From: Syntrophomonadaceae bacterium
Lineage (GTDB): Bacteria; Bacillota; Dethiobacteria; DTU022; UBA8154
DNA: 64,000 nt
Direction of reading: 5' to 3'
Assembly (NCBI GenBank): GCA_003556225.1
Contig: PWRN01000027.1
Coordinates: 10,019-74,018, forward strand
The notes beneath the pieces were generated by a model. The model saw only the letters and a program-made list of their open reading frames with translations. It was not told the DNA's origin and did not search any database. Position 1 is the stretch's first letter. Every line of letters begins with the position of its first letter. The position numbers and the translations under genes are program-made. Positions 33,347 to 47,679 of this stretch are shown piece after piece.

Positions 33347-34273
33347 TCAGTAATCCCTGTAAAAAACAAACCCGGTGATTTCCTGCAGGGCCCGGGCCGC
33401 ATCTCCGTAGGGCGCCAGAAGCAACATGGCCTGGCGATAGAGCTCGTCTCGCTTATCCATGGTTTTTTGCAGGCCCTGCGCTGCTACATAGGTGGCCTTT
33501 TCGCGCTGTGCATCCATCCCGCCAGCTTTACCCATTTTGTCCCGATCTCCCTGCACATCAAGGAGATCATCCACCAGCTGAAACGCTTCACCCAACAGTG
33601 AGCCGAAGCGGCCCAGGCGGGAGAGGTCCTCCTCCCGGCCTCCTCCCAGCAGCACACCGGCTCGCAGGGAGGCCTCGATCAACGCGCCGGTCTTTTTCTG
33701 GTTAATATAAGCAATCACTTCCTGGCCAGGATTTTTCCCTTCAGATTCCATATCGACAACCTGGCCCCCGATCATGCCGTTTACACCGGAAGACCGGGCG
33801 ATTTCATAAATCACCCGCAGCCGGGTTTCAGGCGCGACGTGCAGTGCATAAGCAGGAGAAAAAGGATCAGGGCCCGCTGCAGGATTGCGGCTACTTAAAA
33901 TCTCAAATGCCAGGGTCAACAAGGCATCTCCGGCCAGGATGGCAATAGCTTCACCATAGACCTTGTGGCAGGTCGGCTGACCCCTCCTGTAGGCATCGTC
34001 GTCCATGGCGGGCAGATCGTCGTGGATCAAGGAATAAGTGTGAATAAACTCTACGGCACATGCCGCCGGCACGGCCTGGGAGGTGCTTTCCGTGAAGAGC
34101 TCCGCGGCAAGCAGGAGCAAGGCGGGGCGGATGCGCTTTCCTCCTGCAAAAACGCTGTAGCGCATGGCCTTATGAATGTTTTCCGGGTAACAGTCCTCTG
34201 CGGGCAGATACAGGTCCATGGCCTGCTCCACAAGCGCAACCTGCTTCTTGAAACGCTCCGGGTGATTTTTCAT
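33347..34273 (-). CDS. ispA: farnesyl diphosphate synthase (geranyltranstransferase)
   Basis: First and second Asp-rich motifs (LIHDDLPAMDDDAYRRG and QLVDDLLDV), 308 aa. Confidence 0.85.
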   Translation of the reverse strand: MKNHPERFKKQVALVEQAMDLYLPAEDCYPENIHKAMRYSVFAGGKRIRPALLLLAAELFTESTSQAVPAACAVEFIHTYSLIHDDLPAMDDDAYRRGQPTCHKVYGEAIAILAGDALLTLAFEILSSRNPAAGPDPFSPAYALHVAPETRLRVIYEIARSSGVNGMIGGQVVDMESEGKNPGQEVIAYINQKKTGALIEASLRAGVLLGGGREEDLSRLGRFGSLLGEAFQLVDDLLDVQGDRDKMGKAGGMDAQREKATYVAAQGLQKTMDKRDELYRQAMLLLAPYGDAARALQEITGFVFYRDY

Positions 34274-34312
34274 GCGGCAAATCCTCGCCTCCTGGAAGAC
34301 TCCATTGTCTCT

Positions 34313-34576
34313 TTAAAAAGGATCATCCTCGCTGCTGAATTCTACTTTTGTCCCGTCTTCGAGCAGCAGCTCAACCTTTTCTTCCGCCTGACTCAGGATG
34401 TTTTTGCAGTGTTGGGTCAACTTCATCCCTTCCTGGAAGTTTTGCAGGGTTTCATCGAGGGTTAGCTCTTCCTTCTCCAGTTTTTCAACGGTGCTTTCCA
34501 GTTTTTTAATGGCCTCTTCAAAGGTTAAGTCTTCTAAAGGTTTTTTCGCCAAGGCAAATCTTCCTTCCTTAAACAA
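34313..34576 (-). CDS. xseB: exodeoxyribonuclease VII small subunit
   Basis: 87-aa coiled-coil protein (LTFEEAIKKLESTVEKLE...) immediately downstream of xseA. Confidence 0.85.
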   Translation of the reverse strand: MFKEGRFALAKKPLEDLTFEEAIKKLESTVEKLEKEELTLDETLQNFQEGMKLTQHCKNILSQAEEKVELLLEDGTKVEFSSEDDPF

Positions 34577-34593
34577 TTTAACCCGGGATAGAG

Positions 34594-35811
34594 TTACTCG
34601 CCTGTTTTTTCAATTTCTTTGACCAGGCAGCGGGCCCGCCCATCGACAAAAATGACTTCTATTTCACGATTTTCTCTCAGAAGGCTGATGCCCTTGATCA
34701 GCTGCTGGTTTTCATCCACAACCAGGGCAAATCCCCGTCCCAAAACCCGCATCGGATCTAACGCCTGCAGGCGATCTTCCAGGTTTTTTACCGTGGCGCG
34801 CTTCAGCTGTAAATCGTATTTGATACCACGTGACATCCTCAACCATAGCTCATCAATCCTCTGCAGGTGGTAATAGATCTTATCTCGCAAATACCGGTGG
34901 AACCTGGCACTGGAAAGGTGCTTCAGCAGATGCAAGCGGCCTGCCAGGCTGTTTTTAACAGCGCGTTCCAAACGAACCTTCATGACCTGGACCTGTTTTT
35001 CCAGCTCATTCCTATCGGGAGCAATAAGCTCCGCCGCGGCAGTAGGCGTTGAAGCCCTGCAGTCGGCGACAAAATCTGCGATGGTAAAATCCGTTTCGTG
35101 ACCCACTGCTGAAATCACGGGAGTTCTTGCTTGAAAGATGGCCCGGGCAACGCCTTCATCATTAAAAGACCACAGCTCTTCCAGGGAACCACCCCCGCGG
35201 GTTATGACCAGCACATCAAATTCTCCCCGCCGGTCCATCACTTCCAGGGCCTGGACGATTTGTGCGGCAGAATCCTTTCCCTGGACAGCGACAGGATAGA
35301 TGGTCAACTGTATAAAAGGAAATCTCCGTCGCAGTGTTGTAATGAAATCTCGAACCGCTGCGCTGCCGGGCGAGGTGATTACGCCAACGTTCCCTGGAAT
35401 AGAGGGCAAGGGCTTTTTGTGCGCCGCATCAAAAAGCCCTTGTTCTTGCAATTTTTCTTTGAGCTGTTCAAAAGCCTGGTAGAGCGCCCCCTGTCCTTCG
35501 GGTTCCAGTTCCTCGATATAAAGTTGAAAATACCCGCCGCGTTCATAAATCGAGGTGCTGCCCCTGGCAATCACGCTCATGCCCTCGGCCGGTAAAAAGG
35601 TCAGATGTCTGTTCTTTTGTCTAAAAAAAACGGCCCGTAAGATCTGCTCCTCTTCTTTTAATGTAAAATACATATGCCCCGAGGGCTTGTGGTGTTTGAA
35701 ATTCGATATTTCACCCAGGACCTGGATGTCCTGTAAAAGGGCGTCTTGAAATAATATCTCTTTGAGGTAGCGGTTAACCTGGGATACACGGTAAATGGCA
35801 TCCTTTTTCAT
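34594..35811 (-). CDS. xseA: exodeoxyribonuclease VII large subunit
   Basis: N-terminal OB-fold (VSQVNRYLKEIL...GEISNFKHHKPSGHMYFTLKEE) and catalytic domain. 405 aa. Confidence 0.9.
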   Translation of the reverse strand: MKKDAIYRVSQVNRYLKEILFQDALLQDIQVLGEISNFKHHKPSGHMYFTLKEEEQILRAVFFRQKNRHLTFLPAEGMSVIARGSTSIYERGGYFQLYIEELEPEGQGALYQAFEQLKEKLQEQGLFDAAHKKPLPSIPGNVGVITSPGSAAVRDFITTLRRRFPFIQLTIYPVAVQGKDSAAQIVQALEVMDRRGEFDVLVITRGGGSLEELWSFNDEGVARAIFQARTPVISAVGHETDFTIADFVADCRASTPTAAAELIAPDRNELEKQVQVMKVRLERAVKNSLAGRLHLLKHLSSARFHRYLRDKIYYHLQRIDELWLRMSRGIKYDLQLKRATVKNLEDRLQALDPMRVLGRGFALVVDENQQLIKGISLLRENREIEVIFVDGRARCLVKEIEKTGE

Positions 35812-36650
35812 AACAGTTTACAAGCCTCGACCAAATTGTCTAAAAGCATTGCAATCGTTACGGGGCCAACGCCGCCCGTGATCGGGGTAATCCAACTGGC
35901 CTTTTCCTGCGCTTCACCGTGGTCCACGTCGCCCACCAGGCGAGTGCCAACCTGGCTCAGGCCGACGTCCACCACGATCGCGCCTTCTTTAACCATATCC
36001 CCTGTAATGGTATAGGGATGCCCCACAGCCACCACCAGGATGTCCGCTTGCTTGGTGAAGGCGGAAAGGTCCGGGGTCTGAGAATGGATGATGCTCACAG
36101 TTGCATTTCTTTCCAGCAGCATGAAGGCTACCGGTTTTCCTACAAGCTGGCTGCGCCCGACGACAACGGCCCTTTTGCCTTCAATCTTTTCACCGGTTGA
36201 GTCAATCAGCTTGATAATACCCTTGGCCACGAAAGGCGGCATATGGTGTTCCCCGATCAAGAAGTCTCCCATATTTATAAAATGCAGTCCTTCGACATCT
36301 TTGCGCGGTTCCACGATCTGTGAGATCAGGGTATGGTCCAGGTGAGGCGGTAGAGGATGGATGTTGATCCCGTGGACAAGATCGGTTTCATTGAGCCGTT
36401 CGATCAGGTGGACGATTTCTTCGTCTGTTGTGGTTTCGGGTAGGTTAAAAACCCGGCACTTGATCCCGAGTTGCCGGCACGTTCTTTCTTTCAATTGCGC
36501 AATATGCACCCGGCCGACGGGACTTTTCACGACAAGAATCGCCAAACCCGGTGTAATGCCTTTATCTGCATGCAAGGACTGGATATCTTGTTTGATTTTT
36601 TCCTTGACCTCGATTGCAGCCTGTTCTCCATTAATGATTTTTGCGGTCAT
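35808..36650 (-). CDS. FolD-family methylenetetrahydrofolate dehydrogenase/cyclohydrolase paralogue 1, divergent at conserved active-site motifs
   Basis: FolD fold with GRSQLVGKPVAFML, ADILVVAVG, GAIVVDVG and PITGGVGPVTIAML. Canonical motifs are altered: SxxYVxxK becomes VGRVHIAQLK, VQLPLP becomes NIHPLPP, DVDG becomes DVEG, and PCTP becomes PPFVAK. Confidence 0.7.
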   Translation of the reverse strand: MTAKIINGEQAAIEVKEKIKQDIQSLHADKGITPGLAILVVKSPVGRVHIAQLKERTCRQLGIKCRVFNLPETTTDEEIVHLIERLNETDLVHGINIHPLPPHLDHTLISQIVEPRKDVEGLHFINMGDFLIGEHHMPPFVAKGIIKLIDSTGEKIEGKRAVVVGRSQLVGKPVAFMLLERNATVSIIHSQTPDLSAFTKQADILVVAVGHPYTITGDMVKEGAIVVDVGLSQVGTRLVGDVDHGEAQEKASWITPITGGVGPVTIAMLLDNLVEACKLL

Positions 36651-36766
36651 TTTCGACCCCCTAGCGGCATTTCCAGCTTTGAGGCCAGCTGTGCAATCCC
36701 CTGGCCCCAAAGCTCACCACTTCACGGTTGAAATGCCTTATCTTCAAAGAACTCAACTTTTTTCGT

Positions 36767-37621
36767 TCAGCTTTCAAGATGTTTTTTAAACGCTTGCAGC
36801 GCATTCCACATCAACATGGTAATGGTGATGGGTCCTACGCCTCCAGGAACCGGCGATATCCAGCTCGCGACCTCCTTGGCCTGGTCAAAATCCACGTCAC
36901 CTACGAGCCTGTCCCCTACCTGGGTTACGCCTACATCGATCACGATGGCACCAGGTTTGATCCAGTCACCCTTGACCAACCCTGTCTGGCCCGCAGCAGC
37001 GACCAGGATATCCGCTTCGCGACAAATGTCCGCCAAGCCCACTGTTTTTGAATGACAGAGGGTTACGGAGGCATTTCTTCGCAGCAGAATCAGGGCCAGG
37101 GGCTTGCCCACGATGTTGCTGCGGCCAATCAAAACGGCGGACTTTCCATAGACCGGTTGCGTCGTATGTTCGATCATATGCAAAATACTGTGTGCCGTGC
37201 AGGCAATGAAGCCTTCTTCGTCGCTGAACAGCTTGCCCATATTAATGGGGTGCGTGCCGTCAATGTCTTTTTCAGGATCTATCGCGTTTAAGATGACGCG
37301 TTCGTCAAGGTGGTCCGGCAGGGGCAGCTGGACCATGAACCCATGGATTTTTTCGTCCTCGTTGAGTTCTTCTATCACCTCGAACAAATCATCCTGGGAG
37401 ATATCCTCAGGCAACCGCCGGACCTCTGAATAGAACCCCAGCTTTTTACTCTGCTTTTCTTTGTTGGTAACATATGACAGGGAAGCAGGATTTTGCCCGA
37501 CCAAGACAACGGCAAGACCGGGAGTCAGGCCCGTTTCATCATAGATGCGGCCCAACTCTTTCACAATTTCTGTGCGGACGCTTTCTGCCACTTCATCCCC
37601 TTTAATCAGGTTGGCGGGCAT
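36767..37621 (-). CDS. folD: bifunctional methylenetetrahydrofolate dehydrogenase/cyclohydrolase, paralogue 2
   Basis: Canonical PASLSYVTNKEK, MVQLPLP, DIDG, GRSNIVGKPLALIL and PVPGGVGPITITML motifs. The PCTP motif is replaced by ACTAHS. Confidence 0.8.
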   Translation of the reverse strand: MPANLIKGDEVAESVRTEIVKELGRIYDETGLTPGLAVVLVGQNPASLSYVTNKEKQSKKLGFYSEVRRLPEDISQDDLFEVIEELNEDEKIHGFMVQLPLPDHLDERVILNAIDPEKDIDGTHPINMGKLFSDEEGFIACTAHSILHMIEHTTQPVYGKSAVLIGRSNIVGKPLALILLRRNASVTLCHSKTVGLADICREADILVAAAGQTGLVKGDWIKPGAIVIDVGVTQVGDRLVGDVDFDQAKEVASWISPVPGGVGPITITMLMWNALQAFKKHLES

Positions 37622-37633
37622 CCAGCATACCTC

Positions 37634-38518
37634 CTAACTCTGGTTTAACCAGATCGCTGCCTCAACGGTATTATAAAGCAGCATGGTGACGGTCATCGGG
37701 CCTACTCCCCCCGGTACCGGGGTAATATAAGAAGCTTTTTCCGCAACGGGTTCATAATCAACGTCTCCAGCCAGGCGGAAACCGCTCTTTTTCGATGAAT
37801 CTGGAACACGATTAACACCGACGTCAATCACCACGGTGCCTTCGTTTACCATATCTGCCGTGATCGCATTTGGACGCCCCATGGCAGCCACCAAAATATC
37901 CGCTTGCTTGGTATAATAGCTGATGTCCTTGGCCCCGGTATGAACCACGGTAACGACGGCATTGGCCCCTTCTGCTTTTTGCATTAAAATCGCGGCTAAA
38001 GGTTTTCCAACAATATTGCTGCGTCCACAAACAACGACGTGTTTCCCGGCGGGATCATTCCCGGAGCGGACCAGGAGCTGCTTTACGCCGTGGGGCGTGC
38101 AGGGTAGGGGACAGGGCTCTCCCCGCAGCAATTTGCCCAGGTTAACGGGATGAAAACCGTCTACATCTTTTTCCGGTGAAATATAACCGATGACGCGGTC
38201 AACGCTGATGTGGTCCGGTAGGGGAAGCTGGACAAGAATACCACTGATTTTCGGGTCCTTGTTCAGTCCATCAACGGTCTTCAATACCTCTTCTTCTGTC
38301 GCATCTGCCGGCAGTCGAATGGTCTCTTCATACAAGCCGATCTCTTCGCATCCCTTTGCTTTGCTGGTGACATACGAAACCGAAGCGGGATCTTCACCCA
38401 CAAGCACGACACCCAGTCCGGGAACAATACCCTTCTCCTTCAATTCAGCGACTTTTTGCTTTAACTCTCCCCTGATTTCTTCTGCGACCTGTTTTCCGGA
38501 AATAACTTTTGCTGCCAT
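37634..38518 (-). CDS. folD: bifunctional methylenetetrahydrofolate dehydrogenase/cyclohydrolase, canonical copy
   Basis: All FolD hallmarks are present: PASVSYVTSKAK, LVQLPLP, DVDGFHPVNLG, PCTPHG, GRSNIVGKPLAAIL, PVPGGVGPMTVTML. Confidence 0.85.
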   Translation of the reverse strand: MAAKVISGKQVAEEIRGELKQKVAELKEKGIVPGLGVVLVGEDPASVSYVTSKAKGCEEIGLYEETIRLPADATEEEVLKTVDGLNKDPKISGILVQLPLPDHISVDRVIGYISPEKDVDGFHPVNLGKLLRGEPCPLPCTPHGVKQLLVRSGNDPAGKHVVVCGRSNIVGKPLAAILMQKAEGANAVVTVVHTGAKDISYYTKQADILVAAMGRPNAITADMVNEGTVVIDVGVNRVPDSSKKSGFRLAGDVDYEPVAEKASYITPVPGGVGPMTVTMLLYNTVEAAIWLNQS

Positions 38519-38547
38519 TGTTCAACCTCCTTGATTTTATAATATCC

Positions 38548-41500
38548 TTATGCTTGAAGACCTTTTTCCTCAAAATACTGCACGAACCATTTTTCTACGC
38601 TATCCACCCATTTCTCCGCCTGGAATGCAGCCACGTGATTAAGGGGTAAGCTGAAGGCAATCTTGCCTTTCGCCTGCGCAAAATCCTGGACGGTACAAAT
38701 GGGTCGCCCCCCCGGCCAGAAATAGCCTTCATCCGCGGCATCCAGGGTTGTGCCTTTAAAGATGGGCGCCAGGGTGCGGATTTCTTCCCAAACATCTTCC
38801 AGGGATTTGATTTTTTGTTGATAGCCCATGTATTCCATCAGCTTGATGAGTATTTCCCAGTTTTCTCGGCCCGTCAGCGGCTTTATGGCCGGATTGATTT
38901 TTTGGATCAAGCGCTCGCTGTTGGTGTAACTTCCCGTGGTTTCTGCAAAAGAAGCGGCCGGAAGAACGACATCGGCTTTTTTTGCAATCTCCGTCAAAAA
39001 AAGATCCTGCACGACCAGCAGTTCAGCCTGGGCCAGTTTGTCGATCCAGGCGCTCTTAATATCTTCGCCGAAAACGAAAACACCTTTAATGGTCTTCTTT
39101 TCCAGCCCTTCCAGGACCTGCTGCGTGTTTTTCCCTGCTGCCGGGGGAACCTCTGTCTTCCACTTATCGGAGAACTTGCTGCGGATCTCGGGATCGTCCG
39201 CCTGCTGGTAACCGGTTAAATAACGGGTCGAAACACCCATATCCAGCATACCCTGGCTGTTGCACCGCTCCCGCAGGAAGATAATGCCGCGGCGAGGTTT
39301 ACCAACTTTTCCAAGCAGGGTCACAAAGCCGGCCAACAGCTGCGCCGCTTCCGGGGCCAGGTTATTGCTCCCCATGACCAGCATGGGAGTCTTCGCGGCG
39401 GCATAGCGCTCCACCAGGTCGGCAATATCTTGTTCTGTTATCCCGCTGCCGGAGAGCAGCTCATCCATGGATTGCTTACTCAGCCAGGCCTCCAGGGTGG
39501 CAAAATTCTCTGTGTACTCTTGCACGAAGGCCTGGTCTACCAACCCTTTTTCTTTTAAATAAAGGAGCAGGGCGGCAAACAGGGAAACCGAAGCCTGGTC
39601 CTCGGCCTTTAAAAATCGGGCGGCGTACTTCTTCAACTTCACGTCTCGATTGTCGACCACCCATAATGTTGCCCCTTTCTCCACCGCTTGCTTGATTTTC
39701 AAGGCGGCGATGGGATAGTCAGGAAAATCCGCGCCCACGGTCAGGATAAAGTCCGCCGTGCCAATTTCTTCGTACGAGTTGGTCGATGCGTCCCAACCGA
39801 ACATTTCTGCCAGGGGATTTACAGGTTCCGCTGTGCTGTTAATGTTGTTTGTTCCCAGGGTTGCCCGGGCAAACTTCTGGATGAGATAGCTTTCTTCATT
39901 ACTGTGCCTGGGGCTGGAAAAAACAGCCAGGCTTTCTCCTCCAAAACGGGCCTTCAGGGATTTAAACTTCTTGGTAATATGCACCAGCGCATCTTCCCAG
40001 GAGGTTTCCCTTAGTTGTCCGTTTTCACGGATCAGGGGCTTGCGAATCCGCTCCGGGCTGTTGACGTATTCGAAACCAAACCGACCTCGTTTACAGAGTA
40101 ACCCCTGGTTGACCGGGCCTTCCCCGGGCACAACCCGGGCCAGCGTATCCCCGATCGTTTCAATGTTAATGCTGCATCCCACCCCGCAATATCCACAGGT
40201 GGAAGCCGTATGCTTCAGTTCCCAGGGGGCCGGCTTGGTGAAAGGCATCCGCTCAACCAGGGCTCCCGTGGGACAAACCGCCACGCACTGCCCGCACGTG
40301 ACACAACTGGTTTCTTCCAGGGGGAGGTCCAGCGAGGGGCTAACATAGGCATCAAATCCCCGGTTCACCAGCCCCAATGCTTCGGCACCGATCACCTCTG
40401 CACAGGTTCGCACACAAAGGCCGCAGAGGATGCATTTATTGGGTTCACGGAAAATGAAGGGATGTTCTTCATTTTCGTAATCGTGTTTTTCACCCATGAT
40501 TCTCTCGGGATGGGCATCGTATTCCGTCGCATAAGATCTCAGCCTGCATTCAAAAACATCCAGGCAGCCACACTCCAGGCAGCGCTCCCCGTCCTTGGAA
40601 GCGCTCTCCGGCGTTAATCCTTTCTCCACTTCCCGGAAATTTTTCACGCGGACTTCCGCGGGGACCAGGGGCATCTTGACTTTTTCCACGGTCTCCAGGT
40701 CAGCAAAATCTTCCTCGGTAAGCCCTTCCTTGATAATATTATAGTGCGTCTTGTAGGGCATGACCTCTCCGTTTAAGTAATGATTGACAACCTCTGCCGC
40801 TCGTTTTCCGGCGGCAATGGCATCAATAGCAATGGCCGGGCCGGTCACAGCATCACCGCCAGCGAAAACCCCGGGCACGTTGGTCAAGAACGTATCTTCC
40901 TGAATATCGATGGTATTCCATTTATTGGTTCCCACATCATCTTTGATCTTGTCAATCACAACGTCCTGGCCGATGGCAGCGATAATCGTGTCCACTTCCA
41001 CGGTAAAAAAGGAATCGGGAATGGGAACGGGGCGGCGCCTTCCGGATTCGTCGGGTTCCCCGAGTTCCATTCTCTGGCAGACCACCCGCTGCGCCTGGCC
41101 CTCGCCCTCAATCTGCACGGGGTTGGCCAGCAGGTGCAGTTCAACGCCTTCTTCATCGGCTTCGATGACTTCAATTTCCTGTGCAGGCATTTGTTCCCGG
41201 GCCCTGCGGTAGATCACCATCACCTGGTCAGCGCCGAGACGCTTGGCAGTGCGGGCGGCGTCCATGGCCGTGTTCCCGCCGCCAATAACTGCAACCTTGC
41301 TCCCCAGGGTCACTTCTTCATTTAACATCACGGCCCTTAAGAACTCGGTGCCGCCCTGCACGCCCGGCATATCCTCGCCCGGCACACCCATCCTGCGGCT
41401 GTTTTGAGCTCCAATGGCCAGGTAGACTGCGTCGTAACCGTTCTTGAAAAGGTAGTCGATGGTGAAATCTTCTCCCAGCTGCAGCCCTGTCTTGGCCTCC

Positions 41501-42273
41501 ACGCCCAGGTCCAGCACCAGCTGGATTTCCGCGCCCAAGACAGCCTTGGGGAGCCTGTACTCTGGAATACCATAGCGCAGCATCCCTCCCAGCTCGGGCA
41601 GGGCTTCAAAAATGGTCACCTGGTGCCCGCTGCGCCTCAAGAAATACGCCGCAGTAATGCCGGCAGGCCCTGACCCGACCACGGCGACTTTCTTGCCCGT
41701 TTCAGGAGCCACGGCAGGCAGGTAGGGTTCTTCACTGGCCAGGTCCAGGTCCCCGATCAACCGCTTCATGTAGCGAATGGCCACGGGTCCTTCCTTCAAG
41801 TTGCGCCGGCAGTCTTCCTCGCAGGGAGCAGGGCAAACCCGACCGATAGAAGCCGGAATGGGCATGAACTCCTTGACCAGGATCAAGGCATCCCGGTACT
41901 GCTTGTTGGCGACCAGGGCGGCATATCCCTGGGCATCACAGTTGGCGGGACAGGCCATGACACATGGAGCCCGACAGTCCCCGCTGTGATCAGAGAGAAT
42001 AAGTTCCAAGGCCAGCTTGCGGGCCTTGCGAATTTTTTCATTTTCCGTTTGAACCACCATGCCATCTGTTACTTTTGTTGCACAGGCTCTCAGCAACCTG
42101 GGCATCCCTTCGATCTCTACCAGGCACAGGCCGCAAGAAGCATAGACATCCGTATTGCCACTGAAACATAGCGTCGGAATATGAATACCGTGTTCCGTCG
42201 CGATATCCAATACGGTTTGGTCCGAAAGGCCGGCAAGTTCACGGCCATTGATATTTAGTCTGACTTGACTCAT
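38548..42273 (-). CDS. 1241-aa multidomain Fe-S flavoprotein: 2Fe-2S ferredoxin N-terminus, GltD/NfnB/SfrB-like NAD(P)H-FAD oxidoreductase, two [4Fe-4S] ferredoxin motifs, and a formate-dehydrogenase/NuoG-like molybdopterin-fold domain lacking the catalytic Cys/Sec
   Basis: NuoG/HndD-type N-terminus (NINGRE...HIPTLCF...CGLC). Dinucleotide folds VAVVGSGPAGITAAYFL and VAVIGGGNTAMDAA. CLECGC/CILCGLCVRTC/CVTCGQCVAVCPTG clusters. Fdh-type CGYCGVGCS...LCKRGRF motif. Where FdhF carries CARVCHGPS (Sec/Cys-His), this protein has STAEPVNPLAEM, and the C-terminal MopB_CT portion is short. Confidence 0.7.
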   Translation of the reverse strand: MSQVRLNINGRELAGLSDQTVLDIATEHGIHIPTLCFSGNTDVYASCGLCLVEIEGMPRLLRACATKVTDGMVVQTENEKIRKARKLALELILSDHSGDCRAPCVMACPANCDAQGYAALVANKQYRDALILVKEFMPIPASIGRVCPAPCEEDCRRNLKEGPVAIRYMKRLIGDLDLASEEPYLPAVAPETGKKVAVVGSGPAGITAAYFLRRSGHQVTIFEALPELGGMLRYGIPEYRLPKAVLGAEIQLVLDLGVEAKTGLQLGEDFTIDYLFKNGYDAVYLAIGAQNSRRMGVPGEDMPGVQGGTEFLRAVMLNEEVTLGSKVAVIGGGNTAMDAARTAKRLGADQVMVIYRRAREQMPAQEIEVIEADEEGVELHLLANPVQIEGEGQAQRVVCQRMELGEPDESGRRRPVPIPDSFFTVEVDTIIAAIGQDVVIDKIKDDVGTNKWNTIDIQEDTFLTNVPGVFAGGDAVTGPAIAIDAIAAGKRAAEVVNHYLNGEVMPYKTHYNIIKEGLTEEDFADLETVEKVKMPLVPAEVRVKNFREVEKGLTPESASKDGERCLECGCLDVFECRLRSYATEYDAHPERIMGEKHDYENEEHPFIFREPNKCILCGLCVRTCAEVIGAEALGLVNRGFDAYVSPSLDLPLEETSCVTCGQCVAVCPTGALVERMPFTKPAPWELKHTASTCGYCGVGCSINIETIGDTLARVVPGEGPVNQGLLCKRGRFGFEYVNSPERIRKPLIRENGQLRETSWEDALVHITKKFKSLKARFGGESLAVFSSPRHSNEESYLIQKFARATLGTNNINSTAEPVNPLAEMFGWDASTNSYEEIGTADFILTVGADFPDYPIAALKIKQAVEKGATLWVVDNRDVKLKKYAARFLKAEDQASVSLFAALLLYLKEKGLVDQAFVQEYTENFATLEAWLSKQSMDELLSGSGITEQDIADLVERYAAAKTPMLVMGSNNLAPEAAQLLAGFVTLLGKVGKPRRGIIFLRERCNSQGMLDMGVSTRYLTGYQQADDPEIRSKFSDKWKTEVPPAAGKNTQQVLEGLEKKTIKGVFVFGEDIKSAWIDKLAQAELLVVQDLFLTEIAKKADVVLPAASFAETTGSYTNSERLIQKINPAIKPLTGRENWEILIKLMEYMGYQQKIKSLEDVWEEIRTLAPIFKGTTLDAADEGYFWPGGRPICTVQDFAQAKGKIAFSLPLNHVAAFQAEKWVDSVEKWFVQYFEEKGLQA

Positions 42274-42331
42274 GCGCTTAACTCCACCCCTTTACTGTTA
42301 AATATGAACATGGTTTTGAGCACTTTTTTTA

Positions 42332-44110
42332 TTATTCCACGATTACCGAGTCAAAATTACAGGCATCGAAGCAGTTCCCGCACTTTATGCACTTTTCCTG
42401 TTCGATCACGTGCACTTCCTTCTTCTCACCCGTAATCGCTTCCGTGGGACAGCGCTTCACACAGCGCGTACAGCCGGTGCAGAGTTCCGGGTCAATGGTA
42501 TAGGTGAGCAGTTCGCGGCAAACCTTGGCCGGACACCGTTTATCCATGATATGGGCTTCGTATTCATCCCGGAAATAAAGCAGCGTCGATAAGACAGGAT
42601 TTGGTCCGGTTTGACCCAATCCACAAAGGGCCCCTTCCTTGACGTTCAAGGCAATTTCTTCCAGCAGCTCCAGTTCTTCGGGCTGAGATTTGCCCTCGGT
42701 GATCCTGTTTAAGATTTCCAGCATCCGTTTCGTTCCCAGGCGGCAGTGGACACATTTTCCGCAGGATTCGTTCTGGACAAAATTCAAGAAGAAACGGGCC
42801 ATATCCACCATGCAGGTCGTTTCGTCCATCACGATCATCCCACCGGAACCCATGATCGCTCCCGTTTTCACCAGGGATTCGTAGTCAACGGAAGTATCCA
42901 GCAAACTCTCTGGAACACACCCACCCGAGGGGCCACCCAGCTGGACGCCTTTGAATTTCTTATCGTCCCTGATGCCTCCGCCTACTCCAAAGATGACGTC
43001 CCGCAAGGAGATACCCATGGGAACTTCGATCAAGCCCCCCCGCTTCATCTTACCGGCCAGGGCAAACACCTTTGTTCCCTTGCTTTTTTCCGTTCCAAAG
43101 GCAGCGAATTTTTCTGCGCCGTTGTAGATGATCCAGGGCACGTTGGCAAAGGTTTCCACGTTGTTGATGCAAGTGGGTTTCTGCCATAATCCCTTCTCCG
43201 CCGGGAAGGGGGGTTTTAAGCGCGGCATCCCGCGCTCTCCTTCCAGGGAGGCGATCAGTGCGGTTTCTTCACCGCATACAAAGGCTCCCGCCCCTTTCTT
43301 GATCTTCATGTGAAACGAAAAGTCTGTCCCGAGAATGTTGTCTCCCAGCAAGCCGGCTTCCTTTGCGTCTTTCATCGCGATTTCCAGGCGGGTAATGGCC
43401 AGGGGATATTCGGCCCGAACATAAACATGACCTTCATTTGAACCGACAGCATAGGCAGCCAGTAGCATTCCTTCCACGATGGCGTGCGGATCACCCTCAA
43501 TGATACTACGGTCCATGAAGGCCCCGGGGTCTCCTTCATCGGCGTTGCAGACAATGTACTTTTTATCTCCCGGGTTTTGCCGGGTAAAGCGCCATTTTAA
43601 ACCAGTGGGAAAACCGGCTCCGCCCCGCCCCCGCAGGCCGGATTTTAGAACTTCTTCGATCACATCTTCGGGGGTCATTTCTTTCAATGCTTTTTCCAGG
43701 GCCTTGTACCCGTCGCGTTCCCTGTATTCTTCCAGGGATTCCGGGTTGATGATGCCGCAATTGCGCAGGGAAATGCGGTTTTGGGTCCCCACAACCCCCT
43801 CCCTTTCCTCGTTCATGAGCAGGTCAGCCACGGGTTGACCCTGAACCAGGTGCTCATTCACGATGCGGGCGGCATTTTCTTCTGTGACGTCACCGTAAGA
43901 AAAAAGCTTGCCATCGGGCGTGATCACATCCACGATGGGTTCGCGGTAGCACATCCCGACACAGCCGGTTTTTTCCAGGGATACATCGATGTCAGCTTTT
44001 TCCAGCTCTTTTTCCAGCACATCGTACGTCTTGTACCCACCGGCGGCAATCCCGCAGGTACTGAGTCCTACTTTGACTAAAGTTTTATCGTGATCGTGCA
44101 ATACAGACAC
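42332..44110 (-). CDS. NuoF/HndC/HydB-like NADH-binding FMN flavoprotein subunit with an N-terminal thioredoxin-like [2Fe-2S] region and C-terminal 2x[4Fe-4S]
   Basis: GRGGAGFPTGLKW (FMN/NADH site), the cluster-N3 motif ESCGKCVHCRLG, and C-terminal CTGCTRCVKRCP...CIKCGNCFDAC ferredoxin motifs. 592 aa. Confidence 0.8.
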   Translation of the reverse strand: MSVLHDHDKTLVKVGLSTCGIAAGGYKTYDVLEKELEKADIDVSLEKTGCVGMCYREPIVDVITPDGKLFSYGDVTEENAARIVNEHLVQGQPVADLLMNEEREGVVGTQNRISLRNCGIINPESLEEYRERDGYKALEKALKEMTPEDVIEEVLKSGLRGRGGAGFPTGLKWRFTRQNPGDKKYIVCNADEGDPGAFMDRSIIEGDPHAIVEGMLLAAYAVGSNEGHVYVRAEYPLAITRLEIAMKDAKEAGLLGDNILGTDFSFHMKIKKGAGAFVCGEETALIASLEGERGMPRLKPPFPAEKGLWQKPTCINNVETFANVPWIIYNGAEKFAAFGTEKSKGTKVFALAGKMKRGGLIEVPMGISLRDVIFGVGGGIRDDKKFKGVQLGGPSGGCVPESLLDTSVDYESLVKTGAIMGSGGMIVMDETTCMVDMARFFLNFVQNESCGKCVHCRLGTKRMLEILNRITEGKSQPEELELLEEIALNVKEGALCGLGQTGPNPVLSTLLYFRDEYEAHIMDKRCPAKVCRELLTYTIDPELCTGCTRCVKRCPTEAITGEKKEVHVIEQEKCIKCGNCFDACNFDSVIVE

Positions 44111-44133
44111 CTCCCAGGTCCCTTTGCTTTGGA

Positions 44134-44652
44134 TTATTCATTTTCATTTTGCTCATCTGTTTTTCCTCGAAAATCCTTCAATATCTTACGGGTCGACTTT
44201 GGTGTTAACATCGCATAGGTTTCACCATCAATTAACATCACCGGGGAAAGACTGCAGCAGCCAATACAGGCGACTTCTTCATAAGTAAACAATCCATCAC
44301 CGGTTGTTTCCCCGCCTTTAATACCCAGCTCATCCGTGATCGTATTACCCACCAGCTTTGCGCCGTTAACATGGCAGGCCGTGCCAACGCATAGCATGAT
44401 GGTGTGCTTCCCCTTGGGCTGCAGGCGAAACTGGGCATAAAAAGTGGCGATGCCGTAAATTTTTGCGGGTGACACCCCCAGCTGATCACCGAGATACCCG
44501 ATGCCTTCTTTAGGAACGTAATCAAGTGCTTCCTGGATGTCCTGGAGGATCGGAATGATCGCACTGGGATCGCCCTTGTACGTATCCAGGACGCGGTCAA
44601 TCGTTTCATAAGGTATGGCTTCGGACTCCAGGGATTTCTCTGTTGCGGCCAT
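44134..44652 (-). CDS. NuoE/HndA/HydC-like thioredoxin-fold [2Fe-2S] subunit
   Basis: CVGTACHVNGA...CIGCCSLSPVM cysteine pattern of NuoE-type 2Fe-2S proteins. About 170 aa. Confidence 0.8.
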   Translation of the reverse strand: MAATEKSLESEAIPYETIDRVLDTYKGDPSAIIPILQDIQEALDYVPKEGIGYLGDQLGVSPAKIYGIATFYAQFRLQPKGKHTIMLCVGTACHVNGAKLVGNTITDELGIKGGETTGDGLFTYEEVACIGCCSLSPVMLIDGETYAMLTPKSTRKILKDFRGKTDEQNENE

Positions 44653-44869
44653 AAAAACAACTCCTTTTCTAATATAGTTCAAAAAGATTGACGCATTGTT
44701 TCAAGTAAAATGCAAAAAAAGAACAAGCAGCGTGAAACCTGGACGAAACAACAGTACTGCTAATTGATCCTTCGAGATGGTAAAAATATTTTTAAATTTA
44801 TAATTTAAAATTTCGTCGCCAAGCGGAAATATCCTCTCTCCCCCTAAAATTCGCAATATTCTTTCTTGA

Positions 44870-45823
44870 TTATGCTGTGCTCAGCAGTTGTACTGCCAGC
44901 AGCGCCGGACCGACAGCGCTGTCCCCGGCAAAACGCGGTGAAGGAAAATAGAACGAGAGCGAGGGAAGGCCTTCCATCAATCTCCTGCGAATAAAGGCGT
45001 TGGAGGCAACTCCCCCCACCACCAGGACCTCCTGGAGCGCTTTGTCATCGGCGGCCCTCCGCAGCACTTCGATCAAGCTGTGGGCGATGGCAACTTCGAC
45101 TCCCCGGGCAGCCTCAGCAGCCGGAGCGCCGCCTTCCAGAGCCCTTTCCACAAAGGTAGCGGGCCCTGAAAAGCTAATGTCATATCCTTTGACAGAAACG
45201 GGGACTTTTAAACCACCCTGGGTATTCCCGGCCGCCAGCTTCTCCAGCTCTCTACCCGCTGGAAAAGAAAGACCGAGCTTCACGCCCACTCGATCAATAA
45301 ACTGCCCCGCATTCAAATCATTGGTGCCGCCCAGCAGATGAATATCCATGCCGCGCCGCGGGTTCCTCACAGCTTCGACCAGTTCCGTCGTCCCGCCGGA
45401 AAGGTGCAGGGATAAAAAATGGTTCGAAGGGCATTTGGAGTTCCAGAAACCTGTCTCAATATGTCCTTCCTGGTGACTGAAGCCATAAAACGGAACTTGC
45501 AAAAAAGAGGCCAGACAGCGACCGTAACTTTCACCCACCTGGAAAACCGGCATGTAAGAACCTTCCAGGGGGCGAGGCTTCACAGAGGCGGCAATGCAGC
45601 GGATGGAAACACCCTGGAGCTTCGAAAAAATGTCTTCCCAGATTTCAGGCATGTTTTTGATATGCTGAAACACCGCCTCGGATTGCCGTAAGCCCTTTCC
45701 CCCCTTGATCACCTCTAGCGTGATCCTCTTTTCCTGGACCAGCACCGCTTCCTGGTCGGGTTCTTTCTGCAGCACGGCCAGGGATGTAACATAATTCGAG
45801 GTATCAATGCCAAGGATGTACAT
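44870..45823 (-). CDS. Kae1/TsaD (glycoprotease, peptidase M22) family protein, divergent paralogue
   Basis: LGIDTS N-terminus, HQEGH metal motif, and VVGGVASNAFIRRRL matching the GGVAANxxLR motif of TsaD. Short at 317 aa. Confidence 0.5.
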   Translation of the reverse strand: MYILGIDTSNYVTSLAVLQKEPDQEAVLVQEKRITLEVIKGGKGLRQSEAVFQHIKNMPEIWEDIFSKLQGVSIRCIAASVKPRPLEGSYMPVFQVGESYGRCLASFLQVPFYGFSHQEGHIETGFWNSKCPSNHFLSLHLSGGTTELVEAVRNPRRGMDIHLLGGTNDLNAGQFIDRVGVKLGLSFPAGRELEKLAAGNTQGGLKVPVSVKGYDISFSGPATFVERALEGGAPAAEAARGVEVAIAHSLIEVLRRAADDKALQEVLVVGGVASNAFIRRRLMEGLPSLSFYFPSPRFAGDSAVGPALLAVQLLSTA

Positions 45824-45824
45824 G

Positions 45825-46235
45825 CTAAAATTCTCCTTTTAGGTGTTTCCTGATCCTGTCGAGAACACCATTGACAAAACGACTCGCTTCTTCATCCTGG
45901 TAGATTTTGGCCAGTTCGATGGCTTCGTTAATGGATACCTTTTCCGGAATTTCCTCAACATACATGATCTCATAAATTCCGATGCGCAGGATATTGCGCA
46001 CCACGGGTGAGAGTCGATCCAGTTTCCAGTTGATTAAATGTTCCTTCAATATGCGGTCCAGTTCACCGCGGTGTTGTAAAATTCCCTGGAAAGAAGAACG
46101 AAAGTAGGCCGTTTCCTGGGCTCGTTCAGCTATTCCCTGCAGAAAATAGTTCTCCACGTCTTCCGGTTCATTTTCTCCAATCTCAATCATAAAGAGCGCT
46201 TTAAATAAATTTTCCCTGGCCCTCCTCCGCTTCAA
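45825..46235 (-). CDS. nusB: transcription antitermination factor NusB
   Basis: 136 aa with MKRRRARENLFKALF and the NusB helical pattern. Lies downstream of asp23/amaP/DUF2273 as in Bacillus yqhY-yqhZ. Confidence 0.85.
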   Translation of the reverse strand: MKRRRARENLFKALFMIEIGENEPEDVENYFLQGIAERAQETAYFRSSFQGILQHRGELDRILKEHLINWKLDRLSPVVRNILRIGIYEIMYVEEIPEKVSINEAIELAKIYQDEEASRFVNGVLDRIRKHLKGEF

Positions 46236-46282
46236 CGCATGAACTCCCTTCTCAACACAAAAAAATCCCCCTGGCGGCAGTC

Positions 46283-46507
46283 TTAATAGGGATCTCTCCT
46301 GTTCCAGAATCTATACACCAATCGCTGTAAGCTTTCCTGCTTCTCAATCCTGGCTCCCAGGTATACACCCACCAGCACGCAGAGAATGATAAAGATCCCT
46401 GTCCAAAAACCAAACAGGGCGATGGTCAGGGCGACGATCAGGCCGATCAAGCCTCCCAGAACTTTCCCCCAATTTTCAGAAACAAAATGATAAAGGCTCT
46501 CTTTCAA
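46283..46507 (-). CDS. small integral membrane protein (DUF2273-like)
   Basis: 74 aa with two TM helices. It is the usual small gene between asp23/amaP and nusB. Confidence 0.55.
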   Translation of the reverse strand: MKESLYHFVSENWGKVLGGLIGLIVALTIALFGFWTGIFIILCVLVGVYLGARIEKQESLQRLVYRFWNRRDPY

Positions 46508-46522
46508 TGCGGTTTCACACCT

Positions 46523-47098
46523 TTAACGAACATTTTTTTGAACCTTCTCATGGGCTATGTTTTCTACTAATACCTTGATTTCAGCAACATTGTAGCCGCT
46601 GATTTCCTGGACGTACGCCTTAACCTTCTCCTGCAGCTCCGAGGCGAGTCCGGGGATGGGGATATCGGGGATGGGTTGAATGCGCAAATAGATCACGAGG
46701 CCTTGTTCTGTAGATTCTGTCCTGGTGCTGACCTCCCGGATCCCTTTCACGGAACGAGCCGCCATTAAGACCATGTTTTCCACCGCTTTTAAAGAGATCC
46801 GCACCTCGCCCATTTCAGAAAAACTGGTCACGCTGCTAAATTCTTTCTCTTTCTCTTTCTCTTTCTTTGAGGTAAAGACCGCGATCAAAATAATGCCCAG
46901 CACGAACACAATAAAACCGAACAAGGTATAGCTGAAATTGCCTACAAGGAAGCCGAGATTGATACCCAGGAGAGCAACTTCACCCAGTAGACCAAAGGTT
47001 ACGAGGATAATGATAAGGCCGAACAGTGAAATCAGGACTCCCAGGAGCGTGTATAATAACTTCCTTACGGTTTGCATATGCACTGTTCTCCTTTCCAA
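46523..47098 (-). CDS. amaP: alkaline shock response membrane anchor protein AmaP-like
   Basis: N-terminal TM helices followed by a soluble domain. Lies immediately downstream of an Asp23-family gene. A KEKEKEKE repeat is present. Confidence 0.55.
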   Translation of the reverse strand: MERRTVHMQTVRKLLYTLLGVLISLFGLIIILVTFGLLGEVALLGINLGFLVGNFSYTLFGFIVFVLGIILIAVFTSKKEKEKEKEFSSVTSFSEMGEVRISLKAVENMVLMAARSVKGIREVSTRTESTEQGLVIYLRIQPIPDIPIPGLASELQEKVKAYVQEISGYNVAEIKVLVENIAHEKVQKNVR

Positions 47099-47154
47099 AT
47101 TTAAAGCTAACCTCCTGGATAAGTCCAGGAGGTCAGCCGTGCCTTAAAATATTA

Positions 47155-47550: not shown

Positions 47551-47591
47551 ACCTCCTTCTGATTAGTGTAATGGGCTTCGTAATCTTCTTA

Positions 47592-47621
47592 ATTATACCA
47601 AAAAGATCGCCTCACTTCAAA
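47592..47621 (-). promoter_or_regulatory. candidate sigma-A promoter for the asp23 operon: -35 TTGAAG (47621-47616), 18-nt spacer, -10 TATAAT (47597-47592)
   Basis: Read from the minus strand, roughly 45 nt upstream of the asp23 start. Confidence 0.3.
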
Positions 47622-47679
47622 CCTGTTTACTGCCCCCTGGCGCATTTTTATTCCGCAGGGAAAACGTCCTGTGCTCCAA

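What the first reader, a model, noticed from the sequence alone, without database searches (positions are those of the whole stretch)
38548..40300. Formate-dehydrogenase-like domain without the catalytic Cys/Sec-His and with a shortened C-terminus
The C-terminal roughly 570 aa of the fusion protein start with the Fdh/NuoG-type CGYCGVGCS...LCKRGRF 4Fe-4S motif and align to FdhF through ...SNEESYLIQKFARATLGTNNI. Where FdhF has CARV(C/U)HGPS, this protein has NSTAEPVNPLAEMFG, with no Cys, no in-frame TGA and no His. The segment after the dinucleotide-binding regions is also about 130 aa shorter than a normal MopB catalytic subunit. This mirrors NuoG and Geobacter SfrA, which retain the fold as a scaffold or electron conduit without molybdopterin chemistry. 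Reading it as a real formate dehydrogenase would be a mis-annotation.
Basis: partly seen in the sequence, partly recalled or inferred. Interest (0 to 1): 0.6.

Follow-up and report, generated by a model that had tools for sequence, protein, structure and literature searches.

The report
Dead formate-dehydrogenase domain of a transhydrogenase
The formate-dehydrogenase-like end of this 1241-residue protein really has lost its catalytic residues and its last domain, but this is the normal, published state of the large subunit (StnC/NfnA) of an electron-bifurcating NADH/NADPH/ferredoxin transhydrogenase, so the finding is correct but ordinary.

Summary
Residues about 686-1241 of the ORF at 38548..42273 (- strand) align with formate dehydrogenases (E. 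coli FdhF residues 6-563, E about 1e-72). They keep the N-terminal 4Fe-4S cysteines. They lack the V-Sec/Cys-His-G-P loop, which is a clean 5-residue deletion, and the whole C-terminal domain IV (no PF01568). The gene ends in TAA 30 nt before the next gene, so the shortening is not an artefact.

The protein and the two genes upstream are the best PDB matches of the three subunits of Sporomusa ovata StnABC (8oh5) and Caldicellulosiruptor NfnABC (9bov), the Bfu-type electron-bifurcating transhydrogenase. Published work on these enzymes reports an inactive FdhF-like domain, no pterin density, no formate activity, and two off-pathway Fe-S clusters needed for tetramer assembly.

All 120 homologues examined share the same deletions. 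The only new point is modest. This clade (about 1240 aa; relatives are Dethiobacter and Syntrophomonadaceae MAGs) keeps a more FDH-like domain than the solved enzymes. It sits directly upstream of three divergent folD genes.

Novelty: new member of a known kind. Interest is low.

The parts
44134..44652 (-). stnA / nfnC-like gene (NuoE/HydC-like, thioredoxin-like 2Fe-2S subunit)
   Evidence: The best PDB matches are 9bov_C (190 bits) and 8oh5_A (171 bits). The gene was called as 172 aa with PF01257 in the near-identical contig L002.
42332..44110 (-). stnB / nfnB-like gene (NuoF/HydB-like FMN/NADH subunit with a C-terminal 2x[4Fe-4S] ferredoxin domain)
   Evidence: Pfam finds Complex1_51K, NADH_4Fe-4S and Fer4 x2. 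The best PDB matches are 8oh5_B (924 bits), 9bov_B (892 bits) and 9n5u_B (842 bits).
38548..42273 (-). stnC / nfnA-like gene, 1241 aa: 2Fe-2S N-terminal domain + GltD/NfnB-like FAD/NADPH module + NuoG-type Fe-S clusters + FDH-like domain
   Evidence: Sources are. It scores 1090 bits to 9bov_A and 1046 bits to 8oh5_C. K170 and R240 (StnC K170/R239) are invariant in 120 homologues.
40759..41988 (-). GltD/NfnB-like insertion (aa 96-505): HxxxCxxxCxxxCP motif, cluster ligands C147/C151/C155/K170, FAD site GSGPAG (aa 200), NADPH site GGGNTA (aa 331)
   Evidence: Pfam finds Fer4_20 and Pyr_redox_2.
40219..40758 (-). Linker and NuoG-type Fe-S region (aa 506-685): CxxCxCxxxxC (C565-C576), His-ligated cluster motif (H604, C614...), dicluster C657-C667
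   Evidence: Pfam finds Fer4_Nqo3 and Fer4_7. All these Cys/His are invariant in the 120 homologues.
40051..40218 (-). MopB-type N-terminal [4Fe-4S] domain (aa 686-741; ligands C693, C696, C700, C727); corresponds to an off-pathway cluster of StnC/NfnA
   Evidence: PF04879 covers aa 687-739. The ligands align with FdhF C8/C11/C15/C42 and are invariant in 120 homologues.
38644..40050 (-). Degenerate MopB domains II-III (aa 742-1210), aligned to FdhF about 61-563
   Evidence: PF00384 covers aa 742-1147. The AF2 model has pLDDT 93 and TM 0.86-0.88 to true FDHs.
39814..39840 (-). Loop N812-P820 (NSTAEPVNP) that replaces the FDH C-A-R-V-Sec/Cys-His-G-P active-site loop; the 5-residue deletion lies between E816 and P817
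   Evidence: Sources are. The same gap is present in all 120 homologues.
39262..39273 (-). Remnant of the FDH R333-N336 active-site loop: R1001 (R in 41, K in 77 of 120) to C1004 (a Cys specific to this clade, 39 of 41)
38548..38643 (-). Short C-terminal tail (aa 1211-1241) and TAA stop, standing in place of FDH domain IV
   Evidence: FdhF 580-715 has no counterpart. The tail is the fastest-evolving part of the protein. The TAA stop is shown.
35808..38518 (-). Three tandem, divergent folD paralogues (37634..38518, 36767..37621, 35808..36650) directly downstream, probably co-transcribed
   Evidence: Sources are. The same arrangement occurs in relatives L003 and L004.

Best explanation
The ORF is the large subunit (StnC in the Sporomusa nomenclature, NfnA/BfuA in the Bfu nomenclature) of an StnABC/NfnABC electron-bifurcating transhydrogenase. 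The other two subunits are encoded directly upstream.

By homology, NADPH reduces the FAD of the GltD-like module. Electrons pass along the Fe-S chain of the large subunit to the FMN and cluster site of the NuoF/NuoE-like pair. There they are split between NAD+ and ferredoxin. The reverse direction, NADH plus reduced ferredoxin giving NADPH, probably supplies the neighbouring FolD enzymes.

The C-terminal 556 residues are an evolutionary remnant of a formate dehydrogenase catalytic subunit. They keep the fold of domains I-III and the N-terminal [4Fe-4S] cluster. They have lost the Sec/Cys-His loop, the GVTQ loop and domain IV. They therefore most likely bind no Mo/W-bisPGD and do no formate chemistry. 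The role of this part is structural: oligomerisation, docking of the small subunit, and holding off-pathway clusters.

Shown here: the sequence anatomy, the family assignment, and that the deletions are universal in the family. Inferred from homologues: the enzyme activity, the absence of pterin, and the structural role.
For: - All three gene products have StnABC/NfnABC chains as their best solved relatives.
- The domain order is 2Fe-2S / GltD / NuoG Fe-S / MopB, without PF01568.
- K170 and R240 (StnC K170/R239), the HxxxCxxxCxxxCP motif and the CxxCxCxxxxC motif are invariant.
- The catalytic loop and domain IV are deleted in the window and in all 120 homologues.
- FDH-conserved positions are retained at 26 of 82 in FdhF domain III and 4 of 39 in domain IV, against 11 of 16 and 18 of 29 in the first two regions.
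- The FDH-like part evolves faster than the redox modules. At about 70% overall identity it is 62% identical and the tail 43%, against 78-84% for the redox modules.
- TIGR01591 scores below its cutoff and matches only profile positions 2-511 of 672.
- No separate domain IV or second MopB gene lies in the 64 kb window.
- Literature: no formate:methyl viologen activity in Stn (PMC7483475); the FdhF domain is inactive, clusters C1/C2 are off-path, and mutating their cysteine ligands abolishes tetramer formation (PMC10482914); the pterin site is incomplete and shows no pterin density (PMC11829005).
Against: - No biochemical data exist for this protein or its clade.
- Its FDH-like domain is less decayed than those of the solved enzymes. 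It scores 226-270 bits over about 500 residues to real FDHs, while the match to StnC covers only residues 4-335 of the 562-residue C-terminal query (aa 680-1241). TM is 0.86-0.88 to FDHs against 0.81 to StnC/NfnA.
- It keeps the Arg equivalent to FdhF R333 and many domain II motifs (GED, VVQD, ADVVLP, E..G..T).
- Residual binding of a nucleotide or pterin therefore cannot be excluded from sequence alone.
Confidence: 0.9

Rival explanations
1. It is a working NADPH-linked (or bifurcating) formate dehydrogenase whose metal ligand lies elsewhere, for example the clade-specific Cys1004 in the old active-site loop.
For: There is strong FDH similarity over about 500 residues. The Arg equivalent to FdhF R333 is retained, and a Cys is conserved at the N336 position in 39 of 41 clade members. 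Databases label homologues 'formate dehydrogenase major subunit'.
Against: The Sec/Cys-His loop, the GVTQ loop and all of domain IV are missing. No domain IV is encoded elsewhere in the window. TIGR01591 scores far below its cutoff. The Arg is Lys in most of the family. Homologous enzymes have no formate activity and no pterin (PMC7483475, PMC11829005).
Confidence: 0.02
2. The complex has the same parts but a different physiological reaction, and is not a bifurcating transhydrogenase. It could be a simple NADPH:ferredoxin or NADPH:Fe(III)/sulfur/oxygen oxidoreductase, as was once proposed for SfrAB and NsoABC.
For: Homologues are annotated 'NADPH-Fe(3+) oxidoreductase subunit beta'. According to PMC7483475, StnC is related to SfrA/SfrB and to NsoC. 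No assay exists for this clade.
Against: The NuoE- and NuoF-like bifurcation-module genes are adjacent, and their best matches are StnA/StnB and NfnC/NfnB. The StnC-specific K170 and R239 are invariant. The Nso-type archaeal homologue was later shown to be NfnABC (PMC12018979). The link to folD fits NADPH supply.
Confidence: 0.06
3. The FDH-like domain is not only a scaffold. In this less-reduced clade it still binds a ligand (a guanine nucleotide or a single pterin), or its dead-end clusters feed an unknown partner.
For: Domain II motifs that contact the dinucleotide in FDHs are nearly invariant across the family. This clade keeps segments (FdhF 266-275, 349-381) that the StnC-like clade has deleted. 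Cluster ligands C657-C667 and C693-C727 are invariant.
Against: These motifs also form the core of the Rossmann-like fold. The domain evolves faster than the rest of the protein. No conserved Cys/His set for a new metal site is present. The solved homologues show no ligand there (PMC11829005, PMC10482914).
Confidence: 0.05
4. The shortened C-terminus is an assembly error, a frameshift or a pseudogene.
For: The near-identical sister assembly carries an in-frame stop in the neighbouring folD1 gene, so errors or decay do occur in this locus.
Against: The window protein, 120 homologues from many assemblies, and the three solved relatives (9bov_A, 8oh5_C, 9n5u_A) all lack PF01568. All but one of the 120 homologues are 1186-1260 aa long (P0030 is 1143 aa). 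A clean TAA is followed by a ribosome-binding site and the folD start 30 nt later. The same protein sequence is encoded in the second assembly.
Confidence: 0.01

Closest known systems
StnC of Sporomusa ovata StnABC (PDB 8oh5/8oh9; PMC7483475, PMC10482914)
   Same: Same three-gene set and the same domain order. K170, R239, the Cys-rich motifs and all cluster ligands are conserved. The Sec/Cys-His loop and domain IV are lost in the same way. The match is 1046 bits.
   Different: The window protein is 69 aa longer, all within the FDH-like domain. StnC lacks window aa about 866-880 and about 1014-1052. The Cys near cluster C7 is at position 112 instead of 114. The gene neighbourhood also differs (folD paralogues).
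NfnA of Caldicellulosiruptor saccharolyticus NfnABC (PDB 9bov/9bp5; PMC11829005)
   Same: It is the best overall match (1090 bits) and has the same architecture. The authors report an incomplete pterin site, no pterin density, and A4/A5 clusters forming a dead-end branch.
   Different: Its FDH-like domain is about 67 aa shorter (495 against 562 residues). Only residues 6-379 of the 562-residue C-terminal query (aa 680-1241) align in one stretch. The model's TM-score to it is 0.81, against 0.86-0.88 to true FDHs.
Formate dehydrogenase catalytic subunits (E. coli FdhF 1aa6/1fdi; R. capsulatus FdsA 6tg9; B. subtilis ForCE1/YjgC 8rqz)
   Same: The fold of domains I-III is shared (TM 0.85-0.88). 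Also shared are the N-terminal [4Fe-4S] ligands, many domain II motifs, and the Arg at the FdhF R333 position.
   Different: There is no Sec/Cys-His, no GVTQ loop and no domain IV. The K44 equivalent is Arg. The score is below the TIGR01591 cutoff. The domain is fused behind a GltD module and NuoG-type clusters.
NuoG/Nqo3 of complex I and Geobacter SfrA
   Same: These are MopB-derived domains without molybdopterin chemistry that are kept in an Fe-S subunit. PMC7483475 reports 27.8% and 25.6% identity of the StnC C-terminal part to SfrA and NuoG.
   Different: The NuoG hits are weaker (TIGR01973 187 bits for the domain; TM 0.69-0.71). According to PMC12018979, Nqo3 and FdsA keep an extra beta-barrel-like C-terminal domain that Nfn-type subunits lack. 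The status of SfrA rests on the literature and my recollection and was not tested here.

Membership tests
Stn/NfnABC (Bfu-type electron-bifurcating transhydrogenase), large subunit StnC/NfnA | Three adjacent genes: NuoE-like, NuoF-like and a GltD-NuoG fusion | tested here: met
   Genes lie at 44134..44652, 42332..44110 and 38548..42273, all on the - strand. Each has its best PDB match in 8oh5/9bov chains A/B/C.
Stn/NfnABC (Bfu-type electron-bifurcating transhydrogenase), large subunit StnC/NfnA | Domain order: N-terminal 2Fe-2S, GltD/NfnB-like FAD + NADPH module, NuoG Fe-S clusters, FDH-like C-terminal domain | tested here: met
   Pfam hits Fer2_4, Fer4_20, Pyr_redox_2, Fer4_Nqo3, Molybdop_Fe4S4 and Molybdopterin. 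The alignment with 9bov_A and 8oh5_C is colinear.
Stn/NfnABC (Bfu-type electron-bifurcating transhydrogenase), large subunit StnC/NfnA | Lys ligand of cluster C7 (StnC K170, 'strictly conserved'), Arg239, and the HxxxCxxxCxxxCP and CxxCxCxxxxC motifs | tested here: met
   K170 and R240 are present in 120 of 120 homologues. H96/C100/C104/C108/P109 and C565/C568/C570/C576 are conserved.
Stn/NfnABC (Bfu-type electron-bifurcating transhydrogenase), large subunit StnC/NfnA | FDH-like domain without Mo ligand and without the capping domain; off-pathway cluster ligands retained | tested here: met
   The register in the catalytic loop region is gap-free against Csac NfnA and Sov StnC. The deletions are universal in the family. 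C657-C667 and C693-C727 are invariant.
Stn/NfnABC (Bfu-type electron-bifurcating transhydrogenase), large subunit StnC/NfnA | Ferredoxin-dependent NADPH:NAD+ (bifurcating) activity; tetramer of ABC trimers | not testable with these tools
   This needs purified enzyme. It is known only for the S. ovata, C. saccharolyticus and Thermococcus homologues (PMC7483475, PMC11829005, PMC12018979).
Mo/W-bisPGD formate dehydrogenase catalytic subunit (FdhF/FdsA type, TIGR01591) | Sec or Cys metal ligand followed by His (FdhF U140-H141) | tested here: not met
   A 5-residue deletion removes V139-P143. The same register is obtained by phmmer against four FDHs and by two MAFFT runs. There is no in-frame TGA.
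Mo/W-bisPGD formate dehydrogenase catalytic subunit (FdhF/FdsA type, TIGR01591) | C-terminal domain IV (PF01568 Molydop_binding) capping the two dinucleotides | tested here: not met
   There is no PF01568 hit. FdhF 580-715 has no counterpart. Nothing matching it is found elsewhere in the window by tblastn.
Mo/W-bisPGD formate dehydrogenase catalytic subunit (FdhF/FdsA type, TIGR01591) | Score above the curated equivalog cutoff | tested here: not met
   TIGR01591 scores 384 bits against a cutoff of 666 and matches profile positions 2-511 of 672.
Mo/W-bisPGD formate dehydrogenase catalytic subunit (FdhF/FdsA type, TIGR01591) | N-terminal [4Fe-4S] (CxxCxxxC...C) and active-site Arg (FdhF R333) | tested here: met
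   C693/C696/C700/C727 are invariant. R1001 is present in the window, but the position is Lys in 77 of 120 homologues.
Mo/W-bisPGD formate dehydrogenase catalytic subunit (FdhF/FdsA type, TIGR01591) | Formate oxidation / CO2 reduction; bound Mo or W pterin | not testable with these tools
   This was negative in homologues: no formate:methyl viologen activity (PMC7483475) and no pterin density (PMC11829005).

The most novel reading that the evidence does not exclude
The roughly 1240-aa clade to which the window protein belongs may represent an intermediate stage in the decay of a formate dehydrogenase module. It keeps near-complete domains I-III, the active-site Arg, and a clade-specific conserved Cys (C1004) in the old active-site loop. 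It might therefore still bind a guanine nucleotide or a pterin, or use its 'dead-end' clusters as a second electron exit. That would give this transhydrogenase a regulatory or catalytic site that the solved StnC/NfnA enzymes lack.
Probability: 0.05. Interest if true: 0.6.

Novelty: new member of a known kind. Interest (0 to 1): 0.2.

Why it matters
The main value is for annotation. Homologues are labelled 'formate dehydrogenase major subunit', 'molybdopterin-dependent oxidoreductase' or 'NADPH-Fe(3+) oxidoreductase' in public databases. Such labels could wrongly credit uncultured Dethiobacter-like anaerobes with an extra formate dehydrogenase. What they actually have is an Stn/NfnABC transhydrogenase that balances NADH, NADPH and ferredoxin.

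There are two secondary points. This clade shows a less eroded FDH remnant than the solved enzymes, which helps in reconstructing how the Bfu large subunit was assembled from FDH/NuoG and GltD parts. The tight, conserved link to two or three divergent folD genes suggests a dedicated NADPH supply for the methyl branch of C1 metabolism.

Tried and rejected
- SECIS search: not needed. The ORF has no in-frame TGA and ends in TAA.
- Split or separately encoded domain IV: tblastn of FdhF 541-715 against the whole window gave only noise (E >= 0.13).
- A replacement metal site in the old pocket: apart from the Fe-S ligands, only one conserved Cys (C1004) and no conserved His occur in the FDH-like part. 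This idea was rejected.
- Promoter and terminator scan of 33000..46500: the counts equal those of shuffled sequence, and there is no terminator between stnC and folD1. It is uninformative beyond being compatible with co-transcription.
- Genome-collection scan with the single protein: it returned only 12 loci. These were useful for organism names (Dethiobacter, Syntrophomonadaceae MAGs) and for two FdsA-type outgroups (L014, L015), but not for distribution.
- Cofactor-pocket inspection of the AF2 model: model coordinates are not exposed by the tools. Only fold-level comparison was possible.
- One paper look-up failed on a term that was too short.
Full report
**Observation**

The region 38548..40300 lies inside a single 1241-codon ORF at 38548..42273 on the - strand. 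Pfam splits the product as follows:
- an N-terminal 2Fe-2S domain (Fer2_4, aa 3-78);
- a GltD/NfnB-like module (Fer4_20 at aa 100-178; Pyr_redox_2 at aa 194-489);
- NuoG-type Fe-S domains (Fer4_Nqo3 at aa 605-672);
- the MopB N-terminal cluster domain (Molybdop_Fe4S4, aa 687-739);
- the Molybdopterin domain PF00384 (aa 742-1147).

There is no hit to PF01568, the C-terminal molybdopterin-binding domain.

The C-terminal 562 residues match solved formate dehydrogenases strongly over about 500 residues. The matches are HDCR FdhF 7qv7_S (270 bits), B. subtilis ForCE1/YjgC 8rqz_C (262 bits), the F420-dependent FDH 9t1s_L (259 bits), 7bkb_D (258 bits) and E. coli FdhF 1aa6 (248 bits, query 8-551 to FdhF 2-570).

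In every one of the four distinct FDH alignments printed, a 5-residue gap falls exactly at the C-A-R-x-C/U-H motif. I fetched E. coli fdhF from NC_000913 and aligned it with MAFFT in two modes. The register was the same. The FdhF residues with no counterpart are:
- 57-60;
- 139-143 (V-Sec-H-G-P);
- 297-300 (G-V-T-Q);
- 410-415;
- 531-538;
- 580-715 (domain IV).

The DNA at the site has no TGA. The ORF ends in TAA, and the ribosome-binding site and ATG of the next gene follow 30 nt later.

**What it is**

Against all PDB sequences, the whole protein is most similar to three chains:
- 9bov_A (1090 bits), the NfnA subunit of Caldicellulosiruptor saccharolyticus NfnABC (PMC11829005);
- 8oh5_C (1046 bits), the StnC subunit of Sporomusa ovata StnABC (PMC10482914);
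- 9n5u_A (685 bits), the archaeal NfnA (PMC12018979).

The two genes directly upstream on the same strand give the matching partners. The 592-aa NuoF-like protein scores 924, 892 and 842 bits to 8oh5_B, 9bov_B and 9n5u_B. The NuoE-like protein scores 190, 171 and 159 bits to 9bov_C, 8oh5_A and 9n5u_C.

Features singled out in the Stn papers are present:
- the Lys ligand of cluster C7 (K170), invariant in 120 homologues;
- Arg239 (R240 here), invariant in 120 homologues;
- the HxxxCxxxCxxxCP and CxxCxCxxxxC motifs;
- the FAD motif (GSGPAG) and the NADPH motif (GGGNTA).

The locus therefore encodes an Stn/NfnABC-type (Bfu family) electron-bifurcating transhydrogenase.

**What is already published about the domain**

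- Kremp et al. noted that StnC was annotated as formate dehydrogenase. They tested formate oxidation with methyl viologen and found none (PMC7483475).
- The StnABC cryo-EM paper describes residues 683-1172 as an FdhF-like, catalytically inactive domain. Its clusters C1 and C2 lie off the electron path. Mutating their cysteine ligands abolishes tetramer formation (PMC10482914).
[quoted passage not shown] The FDH-like domain contacts NfnC (PMC11829005).
- PMC12018979 notes that Nqo3 and FdsA have an extra beta-barrel-like C-terminal domain that the Nfn subunits lack.

In the catalytic loop region the window protein aligns without gaps to both Csac NfnA and Sov StnC. The loss of the loop is therefore a family character and not a peculiarity of this window.

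**Family-wide check**

A search of the 5.8-billion-protein collection returned thousands of relatives. The best 120 are 44-100% identical over essentially the full length, and none has PF01568. All 120 have the 4-5 residue gap at the catalytic loop. No Cys-His pair is in register. Scattered Cys or His residues near the site are not conserved.

I took columns that are identical in E. coli FdhF and two FdsA-type outgroups recovered from genome contigs (L014, L015). The window retains them as follows:

| FdhF region | FDH-conserved columns retained in the window |
|---|---|
| 1-60 | 11 of 16 |
| 61-135 | 18 of 29 |
| 136-335 (domain III) | 26 of 82 |
| 336-540 | 42 of 74 |
| 541-715 (domain IV) | 4 of 39 |

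The FDH-like part also evolves faster than the redox modules. Against P0007, which is 70% identical overall, the GltD module is 78% identical and the NuoG clusters 84%. The MopB part is 62% identical and the tail 43%.

The ligands of the two off-pathway clusters (C657-C667 and C693-C727) are invariant. This agrees with the assembly role found by mutagenesis in S. ovata. The curated FDH model TIGR01591 scores 384 bits against a cutoff of 666 and covers only profile positions 2-511 of 672. No separate domain IV and no second MopB gene exist in the 64-kb window.

**Structure**

An AlphaFold2 model of aa 680-1241, built with a 61-sequence alignment, has mean pLDDT 93 and pTM 0.94. Foldseek against the PDB gives TM-scores, normalised to the query, of 0.85-0.88 to true FDHs (8rqz_C, 1fdi, 7vw6_A, 6tg9_A). 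It gives 0.81 to 9bov_A and 8oh5_C. The TM-score normalised to FdhF is 0.70, which reflects the missing domain IV. The fold of domains I-III is thus intact. Coordinates are not exposed by the tools, so the pocket itself could not be inspected.

**What is mildly new**

The window protein belongs to a clade of about 1240 aa (P0001-P0041). Its named members and close relatives are Dethiobacter and Syntrophomonadaceae MAGs. This clade keeps FDH segments that the roughly 1190-aa StnC-like clade has deleted, namely FdhF 244-246, 266-275 and 349-381. Its C-terminal domains score 174-294 bits to FdhF, against about 131-206 bits for the shorter clade.

It also usually keeps Arg at the FdhF R333 position (Lys in the other clade). 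It has a clade-specific Cys (C1004) at the N336 position. No further conserved Cys or His accompanies it, so there is no sign of a new metal site. I read this clade as a less eroded remnant. Residual ligand binding cannot be excluded from sequence, and I give it about 5%.

**Context**

The window is nearly identical to contig PWYV01000007.1 of GCA_003567715.1, with 18 mismatches in 23.7 kb. Directly downstream of stnC lie three divergent folD paralogues that are 41-45% identical to one another. The block stnABC plus two or three folD genes sits between nusB(-tsaD) and xseA-xseB-ispA-dxs. The block with nusB upstream also occurs in the relatives L003 and L004, and L004 shows the downstream xseA-xseB-ispA-dxs genes as well; L003 ends at the contig edge with other genes after folD. 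It does not occur in Clostridium formicaceticum.

In S. ovata the methylene-THF dehydrogenase is NADP-specific, and Stn is proposed to supply NADPH (PMC7483475). The linkage here fits that role. This is an inference.

**Mechanism, with its basis**

- Shown here: the gene set, the domain anatomy, the conserved ligands, and the loss of the catalytic loop and domain IV.
- Inferred from solved homologues: NADPH reduces FAD in the GltD module. Electrons run through the large-subunit clusters to the FMN and cluster site of the NuoF/NuoE-like pair, where they bifurcate to NAD+ and ferredoxin (or the reverse). The FDH-like domain carries no pterin and serves oligomerisation and subunit docking.

**Verdict**

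The phenomenon is a documented property of a structurally characterised family. Novelty: new member of a known kind. Interest: 0.2.

Noticed in passing
window 35808..38518 (-): Three tandem, divergent folD paralogues (41-45% pairwise identity) follow stnC with a 30-nt gap and a strong ribosome-binding site. The third (35808..36650) has a divergent catalytic-Lys motif (PVGRVHIAQLKERT instead of PASxSYVxxKxK). Their cofactor specificities are unknown.
   Followed up: partly
L002 13756..14640 (= window 37634..38518): In the near-identical public assembly GCA_003567715.1, the first folD copy carries an in-frame stop (K146 to stop) and was called as two genes. The window copy is intact. The two sequences differ at 18 positions in 23.7 kb.
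   Followed up: yes
L003 10714..12171: In Dethiobacter sp. SURF_39, the second folD after stnC is fused to an adenosine-deaminase-family domain (485 aa; THF_DHG_CYH + A_deaminase).
   Followed up: no
window 41932..41940 (aa 112-114 of the ORF): The Cys next to cluster C7, discussed as C114 in S. ovata StnC, sits two residues earlier (C112) in the whole 1240-aa clade: 40 of 120 homologues have C112/A114 and 74 of 120 have T112/C114.
   Followed up: partly
window 39262..39264 (C1004): A Cys conserved in 39 of 41 members of this clade occupies the FdhF N336 position in the former active-site loop (LRERCNSQG against VRGQNNVQG). No partner ligands are conserved.
   Followed up: partly
window 33347..52979: The stnABC-folD block is inserted into the conserved Firmicutes cluster Asp23-like/nusB ... 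xseA-xseB-ispA-dxs. A tsaD-like gene (44870..45823) lies between nusB and stnA. Genes that look like type IV pilus/pseudopilin genes (judged by eye, not searched) lie further upstream (51151..54636).
   Followed up: no
homologues P0007, P0009, P0010, P0029, P0046 and others: Public annotations of this family vary and are mostly misleading. Examples are 'formate dehydrogenase major subunit', 'molybdopterin-dependent oxidoreductase', 'NADPH-Fe(3+) oxidoreductase subunit beta' and 'FAD-binding protein'. NCBIfam has no model that reaches its cutoff for the full protein.
   Followed up: yes
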